This document shows, in pieces, positions 7,071 to 62,566 of a DNA stretch of 64,000 nt. The position numbers and the translations under genes are program-made. A model generated the notes under the pieces. The model made no database searches. It saw only the letters and a program-made list of their open reading frames with translations, and had not been told where the DNA came from. Position 1 is the stretch's first letter, and each line of letters starts with the position of its first letter. The stretch is taken from the NCBI RefSeq assembly GCF_050920415.1, contig NZ_CP169309.1, one strand, 5' to 3'. This stretch comes from Escherichia coli (GTDB lineage Bacteria > Pseudomonadota > Gammaproteobacteria > Enterobacterales > Enterobacteriaceae).

Positions 7071-7670
7071 CTAAACGGCAGGCGTCGCAATAATGGTTTT
7101 TACATGGGCCAGCGCGTTTTCCAGTGGCTCGAAACTGCGCGAAATTTTGGCCTGCAAATTCGCGCCAAGCCACAGTGCGTAAAGCACTTGTGCCTGTTGC
7201 AGCGGTTCGCCACAAAAGGTTAAACAATGGTTCTCACGGCCATTTTCCAGCGCCTGAGAGAGCAGGGCGATTACGCCGCGAGCCCCTTTATCCATCGCGC
7301 TGCGCATATCTTCTGACAGATCGCACACTTCGGCAGAGAGTTTTACTGTCAGGCAACCACTGATGGTTCCATGTTGGCAAAACTGGTTCAGTGTTTGCTG
7401 GTAATAAGCCAGTATGCGGTCGCGGTAGTTACCTTCGCCGGATTGCAGCAACTCCGTCAGTCGCTGGTGATATGCGGCGTAATGGCGCTCAAGCATGGCA
7501 ACGCCAAACGCTTCTTTAGAGCGAAAGTAGTGATAGAAGGACCCTTTCGGCACTTCAGCCGTTTTTAGTAATTCGCTTAGCCCCATCCCGGTGAATCCAC
7601 GTTGCAGGCAAAGTTGCTCGCCCGTCGCCAGGAGATGTTCGCGAGTATCATGTTCGGTGTGTTTGTTCAT
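7071..7670 (-). CDS. nemR: TetR-family electrophile-sensing repressor NemR
   Basis: ORF track 199 aa (MNKHTEHDTREHLLATGEQL...); TetR N-terminal HTH; NemR-box palindrome 15 bp upstream. Confidence 0.95.
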   Translation of the reverse strand: MNKHTEHDTREHLLATGEQLCLQRGFTGMGLSELLKTAEVPKGSFYHYFRSKEAFGVAMLERHYAAYHQRLTELLQSGEGNYRDRILAYYQQTLNQFCQHGTISGCLTVKLSAEVCDLSEDMRSAMDKGARGVIALLSQALENGRENHCLTFCGEPLQQAQVLYALWLGANLQAKISRSFEPLENALAHVKTIIATPAV

Positions 7671-7772: not shown

Positions 7773-8012
7773 GTGGCGGAGCAATTAGAGTTCTTTCCCG
7801 TCCAGAGCCCGTGCCGGGGAATTTGCCAGTCTGACGAACGCGGATTTTGTCGCGGCTGTTTTCGTAGTCGGGATGAGCGTTTTAACTGGAATAAAATGAG
7901 CGATGGCGAAAAACAAGAGGTGCTGCGCCTTTGTCGGCAGCGATTAATGCGCAAATTACGTGCAATTAAGCCAGCGTCATCAGACGAACCGGAGCAACCA
8001 TCACTCTTTTGA
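7773..8012 (+). CDS. ydhL: Small Cys-rich DUF1289 protein YdhL (79 aa, GTG start inferred)
   Basis: C-terminal part of ORF 7602..8012; expected product length 79 aa requires GTG at 7773 (.AEQLEFFPVQSPCRGICQ...); start is inferred. Confidence 0.65.
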   Translation: MAEQLEFFPVQSPCRGICQSDERGFCRGCFRSRDERFNWNKMSDGEKQEVLRLCRQRLMRKLRAIKPASSDEPEQPSLF

Positions 8013-20924: not shown

Positions 20925-21508
20925 TTTTACCTCTTTTTTTACATCCCATATTAACGGGGGTGCTTTCTCGCGTTATGCCTAAAAAACATACGCGCAATTG
21001 TTATAGTGGGAGGGGAAACGGCAGGTAATGTTCACTATCTTGCACTTTCAGACAAGTCCTTTGTAATAATCTGTTACATATAACTGAGGCGGGGAATTCA
21101 ACCATTCCGGGAAATGTTATCCAGCGTTAAATTTTTCAAAAAACGTAACGGCAGATTTTTTCACTACCCTGAGAGGGGGATGATGGCTTAACGGCGATAT
21201 GTTCTGCTATTTAGCGTTTTTCCTAGTGAGATAGTCCAGTTTCTGAAAAATAGCCAGTGTAATGTTTTGTAGGTCAATATTTGTTGCGTGTGTAAATTTA
21301 AATGATTTTAACCTAGTTCTTGCAATGTTTTTACATTGCCACAGCATCGTGATCTTGATCACGAATGAATAGAAAATTTCGCTATTAAAAAAACAATTAA
21401 CCTGCATTTTTGGTTATCCGCAAACGGATTACCTGATGATAACGCTAAGCAATGGCATCATTGACGTTAAAAAGATGTTTTAAAAGAGGATAAAGAAAGG
21501 TTATCAAT

Positions 21509-21528
21509 GGGGTAATCGGTGTTACCCC
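21509..21528 (-). terminator. Hairpin immediately downstream of nth (end of rsx-nth operon)
   Basis: GGGGTAA-TCGGTG-TTACCCC stem-loop; the U-tract is imperfect on the minus strand and cleaner on the plus strand. Confidence 0.5.
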
Positions 21529-21534
21529 TTTTCT

Positions 21535-28744: not shown

Positions 28745-29016
28745 AAAAGGTCCATAAAATAATTAATACCAAAGGGGTAGGTATTATTAGTGATGATAAA
28801 ATTTCACCAAAAGTGAACGTTTGTATTATTACAATAATAAGAATGCGCTGATGGTAAATATTCAGGGATGAAAAACTGCTCTGAAAAGAGTAACGCGCTT
28901 TACTATCCCTGACAATCACCAACAACATCGAACAAGATAATAAATTCCTGGTTTAATATCCGACAAGTTAAAACATGCACCCAGTCGGGCAGCATGTCGC
29001 TCTACAAGAGTAGAGC

Positions 29017-29142
29017 TTACTTGTGTTGTACCGTAGCACTCTGTTCAGGTGGCTGATAGTTGTCAATGTGACTCGCCACGCCAAGAAGAATGACTGAAAC
29101 GACAAGAACGATCCAACCTGTTAATTCAATAAGACGATTCAT
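29017..29142 (-). CDS. blr: Small membrane protein Blr (41 aa, beta-lactam resistance / divisome-associated)
   Basis: C-terminal 41 codons of ORF 29017..29217 (MNRLIELTGWIVLVVSVILLGVASHIDNYQPPEQSATVQHK); single TM; below the 60-aa cutoff as a stand-alone gene. Confidence 0.7.
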   Translation of the reverse strand: MNRLIELTGWIVLVVSVILLGVASHIDNYQPPEQSATVQHK

Positions 29143-29384
29143 TACAGCCCACATCTCTGTTGATTGATCCATTAACTTCAGGGGGTAAATGTTACTTAGC
29201 AATAATAGCTCCAGCAAGATTTTTACTGAGGTTTTTGCGATATTTAGCTTTTGTCGTTGGAAAATTCGCTATTTTTTTGACTTAAGTTAAACAACATCCC
29301 TTATTGCTGGCAGGTTATTAAACTGTTGAGCGAGGGTAAAGGATAGTGTCAAATAGCCATCATACTTCAATGAGAGGCAATGAC

Positions 29385-42114: not shown

Positions 42115-42150
42115 GAAAAAACGCCGGAGAGAAAAATCTCCGGCATTTTG
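42115..42150. terminator. Bidirectional intrinsic terminator between convergent uidC and ydgA
   Basis: GCCGGAGA-GAAAAA-TCTCCGGC hairpin flanked by an A-run upstream and a T-run downstream. Confidence 0.85.
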
Positions 42151-42158
42151 GCTGTGAA

Positions 42159-54148: not shown

Positions 54149-55093
54149 TTATTTATACAGATCTGCGCTAACGGTGAGGTTATTACCACGTTCCTGCCAC
54201 TGGCGGGTGATGTGGTAATACTTAGCGCCTTTCTTCGCGGCACGTTTTGCAACCTGATAGGAGACTTCGGTCATGTTGCCATAGTTGCCAGAGAATTTGA
54301 TGCTGTCGAATGGAACCATCATCGCTGCTGTTGCTTTGTTCAGTTCTTCGACTTTAGTACCATCAGGAAGCGTGACAGTGTAACGCCCGCCTTTTGATGA
54401 CTGGGTTTCAAAGAAGCGACCAACTTCAGAACTTGGTGATGCGGTTGTCGCAACCCCTGGGATCTCTACTTTCTTCGCTGCTTCGCCACCCGCAGCGAGA
54501 GCTGCACGTCCCGCTTCGGAATCTGCCGGGATCACATCCGGGCTTTGTACGACGCGTTTCTTAGCATCTTTTTTATAGATGAACGCTGTAATGCGCTGGT
54601 TACCGCCCCGGTTAGCATCGATTTGACGAACAATGTAGAAAGCGTAAGCGCCTTTCGCTTTTGCCGCTTTGGTGATGGCGTCATTGACTTCAGGCTGGCT
54701 ACGATAGAAGCCCTGAACGGTAACCGTATCAAACGGTTCAATCAGAACGGCCTGATCTTTTGGCAGTTCGACAACACCGTTGATAACGCGATTACTTGTT
54801 TCTTCGGCTTTTTCAGCATCGGCTTTATAGAGGTCAGCGACCACACGCCAGTTACCGCTGTTACCAAAATCAGAAGTGTCGACAACATAAAAAGAGGCGG
54901 CACCTTCTTTATCAGCGCGACGAGAAACGGCTTTCACCGCTTCGCCAATAGCATTAAAACGACCGGTAACCACTACACGGTCAAAAGGTTTAACCGCTGC
55001 CGCTTGCTCCGGTGTCAGTTCTGTTGCTGCGTTAACGGAAAAGGCCGTAGCAGAAAGCAGTGCCGACGCCAGGAGGGTGTTCTTAAGCTTCAT
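54149..55093 (-). CDS. ydgH: Periplasmic DUF1471-repeat protein YdgH
   Basis: ORF track 314 aa; signal peptide; three internal repeats of a YdgH/BhsA/McbA-like domain. Confidence 0.88.
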   Translation of the reverse strand: MKLKNTLLASALLSATAFSVNAATELTPEQAAAVKPFDRVVVTGRFNAIGEAVKAVSRRADKEGAASFYVVDTSDFGNSGNWRVVADLYKADAEKAEETSNRVINGVVELPKDQAVLIEPFDTVTVQGFYRSQPEVNDAITKAAKAKGAYAFYIVRQIDANRGGNQRITAFIYKKDAKKRVVQSPDVIPADSEAGRAALAAGGEAAKKVEIPGVATTASPSSEVGRFFETQSSKGGRYTVTLPDGTKVEELNKATAAMMVPFDSIKFSGNYGNMTEVSYQVAKRAAKKGAKYYHITRQWQERGNNLTVSADLYK

Positions 55094-55553
55094 AAAAATA
55101 ATCCTTCGCCTTGCGCAAACCAGGTACTGGTATTGTTATTAACGAGAAACGTGGCTGATTATTGCATTTAAACGGTGTAACTGTCTGCGTCATTTTTCAT
55201 ATCACATTCCTTAAGCCAATTTTAATCCTGTTCAAATGACGGTCTATGCTTAAAAAACAGCCGTATCAGCATCAATACTACTGAAGCAACTGAATTGTAT
55301 AAGTTAATTTAATGTTAAGTAATGATTCGTGCCGGGGCGATATCACGTTTTACCTGTCCACCGAAGATAATTATCAGTCTTTATCTAGCGTTCTAAGGTG
55401 TTTATCCCACTATCACGGCTGAATCGTTAATATTTTGCGAGTTCACGCCGAAATACTGATTTTTGGCGCTAGATCACAGGCATAATTTTCAGTACGTTAT
55501 AGGGCGTTTGTTACTAATTTATTTTAACGGAGTAACATTTAGCTCGTACATGA

Positions 55554-57149
<1,596 letters not shown>

Positions 57150-59607: not shown

Positions 59608-60018
59608 GCTTGTCCCCGTTTTTTCTTTCTTTGCTAATAATAATGTCTTTTTCGTTCCGTCATCATAACGAAAATCAATCCGCTCGGGTAAAGAAGTGAA
59701 AATATTTTGAGTTAATTCTTAAGCTATGATACAAATCAGGCGTGTTCAACTACCGAGGACAATTATCATCCGCGATGATGAGAAGCAACACTGCGGATAA
59801 TTGTAATATTATGGACAATTTGTTCAGGACGTTATTTTCTACATTTACCCATCTTCGTACCTCATCCACTATCTTGCTCGTAGGTGAGCAGCACTGGCGC
59901 AACGCGCTTTAGTCCTTTCTTCTGCCTAACCTTGCGCTATGCGCGGGGCTTGATCACTTTGCTCTGGTTTCGCTGAATTGAGCGAAAGATAAAATAATTC
60001 TCTTGCAGGAGAAGGACG

Positions 60019-60384
60019 ATGTATATTTATTGGATTTTATTAGGTCTGGCTATTGCTACGGAAATTACCGGCACGCTGTCAATGAAATGGGCGAGCGTCA
60101 GTGAGGGTAATGGCGGTTTTATTTTAATGCTGGTGATGATTTCTCTGTCGTATATATTTCTCTCCTTCGCCGTTAAAAAAATCGCCTTAGGCGTAGCTTA
60201 TGCGCTGTGGGAAGGTATCGGTATTTTATTGATTACCTTGTTTAGCGTTTTGTTATTCGATGAAAGTTTATCGCTGATGAAAATTGCCGGGTTAACCACC
60301 CTGGTGGCCGGGATTGTGTTAATCAAATCAGGTACCCGTAAAGCGTGTAAACCTGAGCCGGAGGTGAACCATGGCGCAGTTTGA
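60019..60384 (+). CDS. mdtJ: SMR-family spermidine exporter subunit MdtJ
   Basis: ORF track 121 aa; four-TM small multidrug resistance fold; first gene of mdtJI. Confidence 0.9.
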
Positions 60385-61659: not shown

Positions 61660-61743
61660 TCAGGAAAGATAAAAACGGGTGGCAATCAGTGCGCATAAAA
61701 TAAGGATGATAAGAATGAACTCAAAGCGATAACGGCCCACCAT
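61660..61743 (-). CDS. ydgU: Small hydrophobic protein YdgU (27 aa)
   Basis: Manual minus-strand translation MVGRYRFEFILIILILCALIATRFYLS; GGAGGG Shine-Dalgarno about 7 nt upstream; not in ORF track (under 60 aa). Confidence 0.6.
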   Translation of the reverse strand: MVGRYRFEFILIILILCALIATRFYLS

Positions 61744-61835: not shown

Positions 61836-62144
61836 TTACGCTGCGGGTTGTGCAGCAGGTTTTGCCGGTTGCTGATGGCTGTGTTTCTTGGCGTGTTTCT
61901 TCGCTGCCTGCGCTTTTTGTTCAGGGGCTTTCTGTTCAGCTTTCGCATTTTTATGATGCTTTTTAGCCGCCTGCGCTTTCTGGGCAGGTGCTGCTTTATG
62001 CTGTTTTTTATGATGTGTAGTTTTCGCCGGCGCTGCTTTGGTGGTCGTCGCAGTCGGAGCAGGTGTGGTCGCAGTCTCTGCAGCAAAGGCGGCAGAAGAC
62101 AGACCCATAGCAGCGGCAACAACCAGAGCTAATACTTTTTTCAT
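61836..62144 (-). CDS. asr: Acid shock protein Asr (periplasmic, Lys/His/Ala/Gln-rich)
   Basis: ORF 61836..62171; start set at [21 protein letters not shown] (102 aa); low-complexity basic repeats; RstA-box-like site upstream. Confidence 0.9.
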
Positions 62145-62261: not shown

Positions 62262-62566
62262 CAAACGTTAAATAAATTACAGCGTTGATAATAACGTATT
62301 GTGACTTAAGGGAAATTTAGCTACCAATAATAGTAGTCTTGATCGGGTTAACTATTTTACTACTTACAAAGCGGTAGAATAACTGCGCATCAGTAATAAA
62401 TGACACACAGCAAAATGAATCCGTTTATTTGGGTACTTATAATCCTGATGACACTAGATGCGCTGCGGGAATTGGCTGGCGCTTCGTCTATTTTAGGATG
62501 GCTATTAACGTTGGTTTGAGCAGGCAATAAGTCCGGATGGGTATTTACCGCAGTCCGGACTTATTT

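What the first reader, a model, noticed from the sequence alone, without database searches (positions are those of the whole stretch)
29017..29142. Annotated small proteins invisible to the 60-aa ORF track (blr, ydgU, ydhL)
blr (41 aa) appears only as the tail of a longer spurious frame, ydgU (27 aa, 61660..61743) is absent from the track, and ydhL needs a GTG start at 7773. Other sub-60-aa genes could therefore be hidden in the larger intergenic gaps of this window.
Basis: partly seen in the sequence, partly recalled or inferred. Interest (0 to 1): 0.3.

Follow-up and report, generated by a model that had tools for sequence, protein, structure and literature searches.

The report
Known small E. 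coli genes under ORF cutoff

Summary
The window is an E. coli chromosome segment, the reverse complement of K-12 at about 1.669–1.733 Mb. All three observations are correct: blr at 29017..29142(-), ydgU at 61660..61743(-), and ydhL with a GTG start at 7773. All three genes are known. Blr is a divisome-associated membrane peptide. YdgU was renamed SamT in 2026 and inhibits the RstB kinase. YdhL is a DUF1289 protein.

I tested "more hidden genes in the gaps" by codon-aware conservation in up to 80 Enterobacteriaceae loci.
- Gap 59608..60018 contains mdtU/ydgV (59811..59912, 33 aa), a characterised uORF controlling mdtJI.
- Gaps 20925..21534, 28745..29016 and 55094..55616, plus the blr–ydgJ gap, contain no conserved ORF of at least 10 codons with a coding signature.
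- The conservation seen in those gaps is non-coding, for example a covarying hairpin in the dtpA leader.

Two by-products:
- An unlisted gap (asr–ynfM) holds a conserved 34-aa ORF (62415..62519+, NCBIfam "KPN_01571 family"). It is absent from the K-12 reference annotation and I found no study of it.
- The conserved blr start is the ATG four codons upstream (29154), giving 45 aa: it is a start codon in 54 of 54 species, against 22 of 54 for the annotated ATG.

Verdict: ordinary, already known, low interest.

The parts
29017..29142 (-). blr as annotated (41 aa), a divisome-associated single-pass membrane peptide
   Evidence: RefSeq annotation. NCBIfam NF033231 scores 91 bits against a cutoff of 40, and Pfam PF24673 scores 88 bits. 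Present between ydgJ and cnu in about 70 of 80 species. Third-position substitution fraction is 0.66.
29143..29154 (-). Four in-frame codons upstream of the annotated blr start. The ATG at 29154 is the evolutionarily conserved start and gives a 45-aa form, MWAVMNRL...
   Evidence: ATG 29154 is a start codon in 54 of 54 aligned species and the ORF from it is intact in 50 of 54. The annotated ATG 29142 is a start codon in only 22 of 54, and is Ile, Phe or Leu elsewhere.
29155..29217 (-). Non-conserved upstream extension that creates the 66-aa TTG ORF seen in the 60-aa track
   Evidence: The 66-aa form is intact in 2 of 54 species and the 61-aa form in 0 of 54. The extension has no third-position bias.
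61660..61743 (-). ydgU = samT, a 27-aa membrane peptide in the asr-samT operon that acts as a negative-feedback inhibitor of the RstB kinase
   Evidence: Annotation. NCBIfam NF052476 small_YdgU. Homologue found in 7 of 7 other genera. Function from PMC13425233 and PMC11429745.
7773..8012 (+). ydhL (79 aa, DUF1289) with a GTG start
   Evidence: Annotation. GAGGAGG lies 4 nt upstream of the GTG. Pfam PF06945. Appears as the tail of a 136-aa TTG ORF in the track.
59811..59912 (+). mdtU (=ydgV), a 33-aa upstream ORF in the mdtJI leader.
   Evidence: K-12 b4777. Pfam PF23502 matches only these 33 residues. The stop lies 106 nt before the mdtJ ATG, as published. The C-terminal GEQHWRNAL motif is conserved and the ORF is the only one intact across genera in the gap.
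59742..59810 (+). In-frame 5' extension that PGAP adds to give the 56-aa 'YdgV'. It is probably leader RNA, not coding
   Evidence: PGAP CDS 59742..59912. The published TSS, 278 nt upstream of mdtJ, falls at about 59741. Across genera this stretch is conserved at nucleotide level but carries 1-2 nt indels and has no conserved upstream ATG.
62415..62519 (+). KPN_01571-family small ORF (34 aa, MNPFIWVLIILMTLDALRELAGASSILGWLLTLV), convergent with ynfM. It is not in the K-12 reference annotation
   Evidence: NCBIfam NF033695 at E=1.2e-17, 63 bits against a cutoff of 35. Orthologues at the same place in Salmonella, Klebsiella, Enterobacter and Kosakonia. pN/pS is 0.27-0.59 with saturated pS. PGAP calls it as 39, 34 or 23 aa in different E. 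coli genomes.
62527..62566 (.). Inverted repeat AATAAGTCCGGA...TCCGGACTTATT followed by TTTTT, between the small ORF and the 3' end of ynfM. Probably a bidirectional terminator
   Evidence: Read directly from the sequence. Not reported by the simple terminator scan, whose loop limit is 8 nt.
20925..21534 (.). nth-dtpA gap, tested: no conserved sORF. Contains conserved non-coding blocks and a dtpA-leader hairpin at 20969..20994(-)
   Evidence: ORF-integrity and codon-position test on 52 species. Conservation profile. The hairpin is kept in 23 of 23 genera with different stems, mean z = -2.2.
28745..29016 (.). ydgT(cnu)-blr gap, tested: no conserved sORF
   Evidence: 55-species alignment. Best candidate is intact in 14 of 54 with a third-position fraction of 0.36.
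55094..55616 (.). ydgH-pntA gap, tested against only two other genera: no conserved sORF of at least 11 aa. Contains a near-invariant ydgH 5' block at 55094..55175
   Evidence: Alignment with Salmonella and Superficieibacter. Only the 10-codon ORF 55168..55200(-) is retained, and it lies inside the invariant block.

Best explanation
The finding is a correct but ordinary consequence of using a 60-codon, first-start ORF list on a well-studied genome.

blr encodes a 41-aa (more likely 45-aa) single-pass inner-membrane peptide. Its C-terminal tail carries HIDNYQPPE, which is conserved in nearly all species, and the literature reports that it associates with the cell-division machinery.

ydgU (samT) encodes a 27-aa membrane peptide co-transcribed with asr. 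It binds the RstB sensor kinase and damps RstB-RstA signalling at acid pH. rstAB lies in the same window.

ydhL is a 79-aa DUF1289 protein with a GTG start.

Of the four gaps suspected of hiding more genes, only 59608..60018 does. It holds mdtU, a 33-codon upstream ORF whose translation is required for spermidine induction of the mdtJI exporter by counteracting Rho-dependent premature termination. The remaining three gaps carry promoters and leaders, not conserved coding sequence.

One further small gene exists outside the listed gaps. It is a 34-aa KPN_01571-family peptide next to the ynfM transporter gene. It is under purifying selection, but its function is unknown.

Shown here: coordinates, family membership, synteny, coding signatures, and the absence of such signatures in three gaps. 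Taken from papers: the functions of Blr, SamT and MdtU. Inferred: the 45-aa Blr start, and that the 56-aa 'YdgV' call is over-extended.
For: Identity of the window and its annotation.

Blr: family models; synteny in about 70 of 80 species; third-position fraction 0.63-0.66 and intact in 50 of 54; N-terminal alignment; function cited.

SamT.

MdtU.

Negative gaps: with non-coding structure.

KPN_01571 ORF.

No Rfam family reaches gathering score anywhere in the window.
Against: The conservation test only sees ORFs of at least 8-10 codons that are shared across genera. Very short leader peptides and E. coli-specific translated sORFs would be missed.

Gap 55094..55616 was compared with only two other genera.

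No initiation-site profiling data could be consulted.

Neither candidate blr ATG has a good Shine-Dalgarno sequence in E. coli, so the start actually used in E. coli is not settled by sequence.
Confidence: 0.85

Rival explanations
1. Additional lineage-specific (non-conserved) small ORFs are translated in the three 'empty' gaps. Cross-genus conservation cannot see them.
For: Each gap contains many ATG-initiated ORFs of 10-66 codons, some with SD-like motifs. One 10-codon ORF upstream of ydgH, 55168..55200(-), keeps its start and stop in three genera. Published Ribo-RET work reports many non-conserved translated sORFs in E. coli (abstract of 10.1101/2021.07.02.450978).
Against: None of the ORFs shows third-position bias or frame conservation. 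None is annotated in K-12, whose annotation already includes the Weaver 2019 additions such as mdtU. The retained 10-codon ORF lies in a block that is invariant at all codon positions.
Confidence: 0.25
2. The KPN_01571-family ORF is not a protein-coding gene. Its conservation would reflect a non-coding element, such as the ynfM terminator region or an antisense RNA.
For: It has no convincing SD in E. coli. No promoter-like site was found by the simple scan. I found no publication or translation data. It is absent next to ynfM in Buttiauxella, Cedecea and Superficieibacter.
Against: Start, frame and about 30-codon length are kept in five genera at only 57-68% nucleotide identity. pS is 0.55-0.90 against pN of 0.21-0.35, and nine residues are invariant. 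A curated NCBIfam model exists. A paralogous group occurs at an unrelated locus upstream of a LysE exporter, which a local non-coding element would not explain.
Confidence: 0.08
3. In E. coli, Blr really starts at the annotated ATG (29142, 41 aa). The upstream ATG would be used only in genera that lack the second Met.
For: Escherichia, Citrobacter and Salmonella all keep Met at codon 5. The curated models (NF033231, PF24673) and all experimental work use the 41-aa form. Residues 2-4 of the 45-aa form are poorly conserved.
Against: ATG 29154 is invariant in 54 of 54 species. The 12 nt between the two ATGs never carry a stop or a frame-shifting indel. 32 of 54 species have no start codon at the annotated position.
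Confidence: 0.35

Closest known systems
Blr (b4409), divisome-associated small membrane protein; NCBIfam NF033231, Pfam PF24673
   Same: Same gene, with the same position between ydgJ and cnu. It has a single hydrophobic helix followed by a C-terminal HIDNYQPPE tail that is conserved in nearly all species.
   Different: Comparative data favour a start four codons upstream (45 aa) rather than the 41 aa used in annotation and family models.
SamT/YdgU and the MgrB-PhoQ type of small membrane peptide feedback on a sensor kinase
   Same: 27 aa, 92 nt downstream of asr, membrane helix, family model NF052476. The target kinase genes rstAB lie in the same window.
   Different: Nothing differs. PGAP labels it only 'hypothetical protein' in this strain.
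MdtU/YdgV, and metabolite-sensing leader peptides such as SpeFL
   Same: 33-codon uORF in the mdtJI leader, with its stop 106 nt before mdtJ and a conserved C-terminus GEQHWRNAL.
   Different: PGAP in this strain extends it to 56 aa from a GTG one base after the mapped TSS. A PIRT-Seq table lists 45 aa. Cross-genus indels argue that both are over-extensions. The stalling mechanism itself is a hypothesis of the authors and has not been shown.
KPN_01571 family (NCBIfam NF033695 'trnsprt_adja_30'); by analogy, small membrane proteins that partner transporters (AcrZ-AcrB, KdpF, MgtS-MgtA; from general knowledge)
   Same: About 30 aa with a hydrophobic N-terminal half, encoded next to a transporter gene: MFS ynfM here, and a LysE exporter for the paralogous group.
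   Different: It is convergent with ynfM, so it is not co-transcribed. The E. coli copy has a 4-residue longer C-terminus. There is no experimental evidence for expression, localisation or any partner. The analogy to AcrZ-type partners is a lead, not a test.

Membership tests
Blr (NF033231 / PF24673) | Sequence match to the curated family model above its cutoff | tested here: met
   NF033231 scores 91.4 bits (cutoff 40). PF24673 scores 88.2 bits (cutoff 27).
Blr (NF033231 / PF24673) | Conserved position between ydgJ and cnu in Enterobacteriaceae | tested here: met
   tblastn places Blr between YdgJ and Cnu in about 70 of 80 loci.
Blr (NF033231 / PF24673) | Septal localisation, interaction with divisome proteins, beta-lactam sensitivity of the mutant | not testable with these tools
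   Known only from Karimova et al. 2012, as cited. That paper is not held.
SamT/YdgU (NF052476) | 27-aa peptide matching the family model, encoded just downstream of asr on the same strand | tested here: met
   NF052476 scores 71.5 bits (cutoff 24). asr ends at 61836 and ydgU starts at 61743, leaving a 92-nt spacer. The paper states 93 bp.
SamT/YdgU (NF052476) | Direct interaction with RstB and negative feedback on RstB-RstA | not testable with these tools
   Reported in PMC13425233.
MdtU/YdgV (PF23502) | [quoted passage not shown] | tested here: met
   PF23502 scores 91.4 bits on residues 24-56 of the 56-aa call. Stop at 59912 and mdtJ ATG at 60019. GEQHW(R/H)(N/S)AL is present in 5 genera.
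MdtU/YdgV (PF23502) | Translation required for spermidine induction, with relief of Rho termination | not testable with these tools
   Shown in PMC7815308.
KPN_01571 family (NF033695) | Sequence match to the family model above its cutoff | tested here: met
   63.3 bits (cutoff 35), model positions 1-29 of 30.
KPN_01571 family (NF033695) | About 30-aa ORF adjacent to a transporter gene | tested here: met
   Ends 47 nt from the ynfM stop in the window. Same arrangement in Salmonella, Klebsiella, Enterobacter and Kosakonia. Paralogues lie upstream of a LysE exporter. The E. coli copy is 34 aa.
KPN_01571 family (NF033695) | Evidence that the ORF is translated and evolves as a protein | tested here: inconclusive
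   Evolution as a protein is supported: pN/pS is 0.27-0.59 and the frame is kept at 57-68% nucleotide identity. Translation is untested because no data were found.
DUF1289 (PF06945), YdhL | Match to the Pfam model above its cutoff | tested here: met
   69.3 bits (cutoff 27), residues 12-57.

The most novel reading that the evidence does not exclude
The 34-aa KPN_01571-family ORF (62415..62519+; K-12 1671001-1671105, minus strand) is an expressed small membrane protein missing from the K-12 reference gene list. It would act on a neighbouring membrane protein such as the YnfM transporter, as AcrZ-type or MgrB-type peptides act on their partners. Its paralogues upstream of LysE exporters would play the same role there. 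Separately, Blr would be a 45-aa protein, not a 41-aa one.
Probability: 0.3. Interest if true: 0.4.

Novelty: already known. Interest (0 to 1): 0.15.

Why it matters
As stated, the finding matters little. It restates a known weakness of length-thresholded ORF lists using genes that are already annotated and, for Blr, SamT and MdtU, functionally studied.

Its practical value is as a calibration. A simple cross-genus test of start, frame and stop integrity plus third-position bias cleanly recovers every known small gene in the regions examined and rejects the decoy ORFs.

Two small corrections follow that could affect experiments:
- Constructs and models of Blr may lack four native N-terminal residues.
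- The K-12 reference lacks a conserved transporter-adjacent 34-aa ORF that PGAP annotates inconsistently, as 39, 34 or 23 aa.

Tried and rejected
1. Rfam scan of the whole window at gathering thresholds gave no hits, so no known sRNA explains the gaps.

2. I tried to use published initiation-site data. The Stringer 2021 table is truncated at about 170 kb of the genome. Weaver 2019, Meydan 2019 and the Mg-starvation Ribo-RET paper have no held supplements. The INRI-seq, PIRT-Seq and Salmonella proteoform supplements contain nothing on the gaps, the blr start or the ynfM-adjacent ORF.

I replaced it with YnfM-anchored loci and a profile search.

4. Candidate sORFs that looked promising from sequence alone were rejected for loss of start or frame, or for lack of codon-position bias. 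They were 21001..21105(-) at 34 aa, 21207..21407(-) at 66 aa, 28903..28995(-) at 30 aa, 29189..29290(+) at 33 aa, 55083..55193(-) at 36 aa with an AGGA SD, and 55312..55422(+) at 36 aa.

5. The 12-codon ORF 21028..21066(+) is 'intact' in 45 of 51 species, but I rejected it as coding. It lies in a near-invariant block and its third positions are the least variable, at a fraction of 0.15.

6. The RNAalifold consensus of the dtpA leader showed no covariation. Per-species folding showed that the variable stretch is a misaligned but structurally conserved hairpin.

7. The simple promoter and terminator scan around the KPN_01571 ORF found nothing. The terminator-like hairpin was read by eye.

8. The primary Blr paper (PMC3458662) is not held.

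Full report
**What the window is.** A 2-kb query around the finding matches 5,424 of 5,426 complete E. coli genomes and is 100% identical to strain MFDS1022581. The whole window corresponds to NZ_CP169399.1 2418061-2482060. It is the reverse complement of K-12 MG1655 at roughly 1.669-1.733 Mb, from lhr to ynfL.

**Checking the observation.**
- RefSeq annotates blr at 29017..29142(-), 41 aa, as "division septum protein Blr".
- At a 60-aa threshold the only ORF containing it is a 66-aa TTG ORF, 29017..29217(-).
- ydgU is annotated at 61660..61743(-), 27 aa, and is listed only when the threshold is lowered.
- ydhL is annotated at 7773..8012(+). The GTG is preceded by GAGGAGG.
- In the 60-aa list ydhL shows up as the tail of a 136-aa TTG ORF that starts at 7602.

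All three statements are therefore correct.

**Are these real genes?** I fetched 80 loci from different Enterobacteriaceae species anchored on Cnu/YdgT and located the flanking genes in each. Blr lies between ydgJ and cnu in about 70 of them.

In a 55-species alignment, the blr frame has 63-66% of all substitutions at third codon positions. Every other ORF in the region sits near 33%. The blr ORF is intact in 50 of 54 species. Blr, YdgU and YdhL hit curated NCBIfam or Pfam models well above cutoff.

The 66-, 61- and 51-aa upstream extensions of blr are not conserved: they are intact in 2, 0 and 26 of 54 species. The extra codons show no third-position bias.

**A correction to the blr start.**
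- The ATG four codons upstream of the annotated start (29154) is a start codon in 54 of 54 species.
- The annotated ATG (29142) is a start codon in only 22 of 54.
- Codon 5 is Met only in Escherichia, Citrobacter and Salmonella. It is Ile, Phe or Leu in Enterobacter, Kosakonia, Phytobacter, Lelliottia, Pluralibacter and others.
- The 12 nt between the two ATGs never carry a stop or a frame-shifting indel.
- Kosakonia and Phytobacter have an AGGGAG motif about 10 nt upstream of the first ATG.

The conserved protein is therefore 45 aa. The NCBIfam and Pfam models begin at residue 5 or 6 of that form.

Neither ATG has a good SD in E. coli, so which one E. coli uses needs experiment. I rate the 45-aa start at about 0.65. 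The C-terminal motif HIDNYQPPE is conserved in nearly all species, which suggests that the tail is the functional surface.

**What the genes do (from papers).**
- Blr is described as a 41-aa membrane protein that interacts with many divisome proteins in two-hybrid assays. It is thought to stabilise the divisome under stress, and it is a substrate of the RseP protease.
- YdgU is membrane-localised and induced from the asr promoter under low Mg2+ in a PhoQP-dependent way.
- In July 2026 YdgU was renamed SamT. It binds the RstB sensor kinase and exerts negative feedback on RstB-RstA at acid pH. rstAB lies in this same window.

**Testing the interpretation, gap by gap.** I listed every ORF of at least 10 codons in the gaps. 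For each I asked whether start, frame and stop survive across genera and whether substitutions concentrate at third positions.

*Gap 59608..60018.*
- K-12 annotates mdtU (b4777, 33 aa) here. PGAP annotates a 56-aa "YdgV" in the same frame.
- This uORF was detected by initiation-site profiling and western blot. Its start codon is required for spermidine induction of mdtJI, and Rho-dependent premature termination is involved.
- The stop lies exactly 106 nt before the mdtJ ATG, as published.
- The C-terminal GEQHWRNAL is conserved in five genera.
- It is the only ORF in the gap that stays intact across genera.
- The stretch upstream of ATG 59811 is conserved at nucleotide level. It has 1-2 nt indels and no conserved upstream ATG. 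PGAP's GTG lies one base after the mapped TSS.
- The 33-aa form is therefore supported. The 56-aa form from PGAP and the 45-aa form in the PIRT-Seq table look over-extended.

*Gap 20925..21534 (nth-dtpA).*
- Its length is nearly constant across most genera and it contains strongly conserved blocks.
- No ORF has a coding signature.
- The one highly "intact" ORF (12 codons) lies in a near-invariant block, and its third positions are the least variable.
- Part of the conservation is RNA structure. A hairpin at 20969..20994(-) in the dtpA leader forms in 23 of 23 genera from different stem sequences. RNAalifold missed it because that stretch is misaligned.

*Gap 28745..29016 and the blr-ydgJ gap.* No candidate passes.

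*Gap 55094..55616 (ydgH-pntA).*
- Only Salmonella and Superficieibacter kept synteny among my loci.
- No ORF of at least 11 codons survives in both.
- A 10-codon ORF, 55168..55200(-), is retained. It sits within an almost invariant ydgH 5' block, so coding and non-coding constraint cannot be separated.

PGAP annotates a 23-aa "hypothetical protein" at 62448..62519(+) in the asr-ynfM gap.
- The longer in-frame ORF matches NCBIfam NF033695, "KPN_01571 family protein" (short name trnsprt_adja_30), at E=1.2e-17.
- Orthologues beginning MNPF/MNPI lie at the same place, convergent with ynfM, in Salmonella, Klebsiella, Enterobacter and Kosakonia. They are absent there in Buttiauxella, Cedecea and Superficieibacter.
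- Across the five genera, nucleotide identity is only 57-68%. Synonymous sites are saturated (pS 0.55-0.90) while pN is 0.21-0.35. Nine residues are invariant.
- Within E. coli, the only two differences in five divergent strains are synonymous.
- K-12 carries the identical ORF (ATG at 1671105, minus strand). NC_000913.3 does not annotate it.
- PGAP annotates the same DNA as 39, 34 or 23 aa in different genomes, including a 39-aa call in another MG1655 assembly.
- A profile search of 1.84 billion representative proteins finds only 52 relatives, with the consensus MNPFxWVxxxLLxLDAxRELxGxSSxxGxW.
- Divergent 42-44-aa members sit at a different locus, immediately upstream of and co-directional with a LysE-family exporter. 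The association with transporter genes therefore recurs.
- I found no paper on the family and no Pfam model.

My working hypothesis, held with low confidence, is that it is a small membrane peptide acting on a neighbouring membrane protein. The ORF is followed by a hairpin plus T-run shared with ynfM.

**Limits.**
- The conservation test cannot see ORFs shorter than about 8-10 codons, or translated ORFs restricted to E. coli.

**Verdict.** Everything at the stated coordinates is already known, so interest is low. The only items with some residual novelty are the probable 45-aa Blr start and the transporter-adjacent KPN_01571-family ORF that is missing from the K-12 reference.

Noticed in passing
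window 62415..62519 (+); K-12 1671001-1671105 (-): Conserved 34-aa KPN_01571-family ORF (NF033695), convergent with ynfM. It is absent from the NC_000913.3 annotation and is called as 39, 34 or 23 aa by PGAP in different E. coli genomes. Paralogues elsewhere sit upstream of a LysE exporter.
   Followed up: yes
window 29143..29154 (-): The conserved blr start is the ATG four codons upstream of the annotated one. It is a start codon in 54 of 54 species, against 22 of 54 for the annotated ATG, which implies a 45-aa Blr.
   Followed up: yes
window 59742..59810 (+): PGAP's 56-aa 'YdgV' starts at a GTG one base after the published mdtUJI TSS. The extension is conserved as nucleotides but not as a reading frame, so the 33-aa MdtU is the supported product. 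A PIRT-Seq table lists a 45-aa version.
   Followed up: yes
window 20969..20994 (-), within the dtpA leader: A hairpin is retained in 23 of 23 genera with different stem sequences, flanked by near-invariant blocks. The nth-dtpA gap keeps about 610 nt in most genera, and about 1.2 kb in Kosakonia and Phytobacter.
   Followed up: partly
window 55094..55175 (ydgH 5' region): This block is almost 100% identical between E. coli, Salmonella and Superficieibacter, more conserved than the adjacent coding DNA. The stop of a retained 10-codon ORF, 55168..55200(-), overlaps its upstream end.
   Followed up: partly
L033, L036-L040, L042, L050, L056, L057 and others (Klebsiella/Raoultella group), between blr and cnu: In these genera blr and cnu are separated by about 1.7 kb instead of about 270 nt, so an extra gene is inserted between them.
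   Followed up: no
window 62527..62566: Inverted repeat AATAAGTCCGGA/TCCGGACTTATT followed by a T-run, between the small ORF and the 3' end of ynfM. It is probably a bidirectional terminator and was missed by the simple scan because of its long loop.
   Followed up: partly
window 42115..42158 versus K-12 1691361-1691585: The ydgA-uidC spacer is 44 nt in this strain but 225 nt in K-12, so K-12 has about 180 nt of extra sequence there.
   Followed up: no
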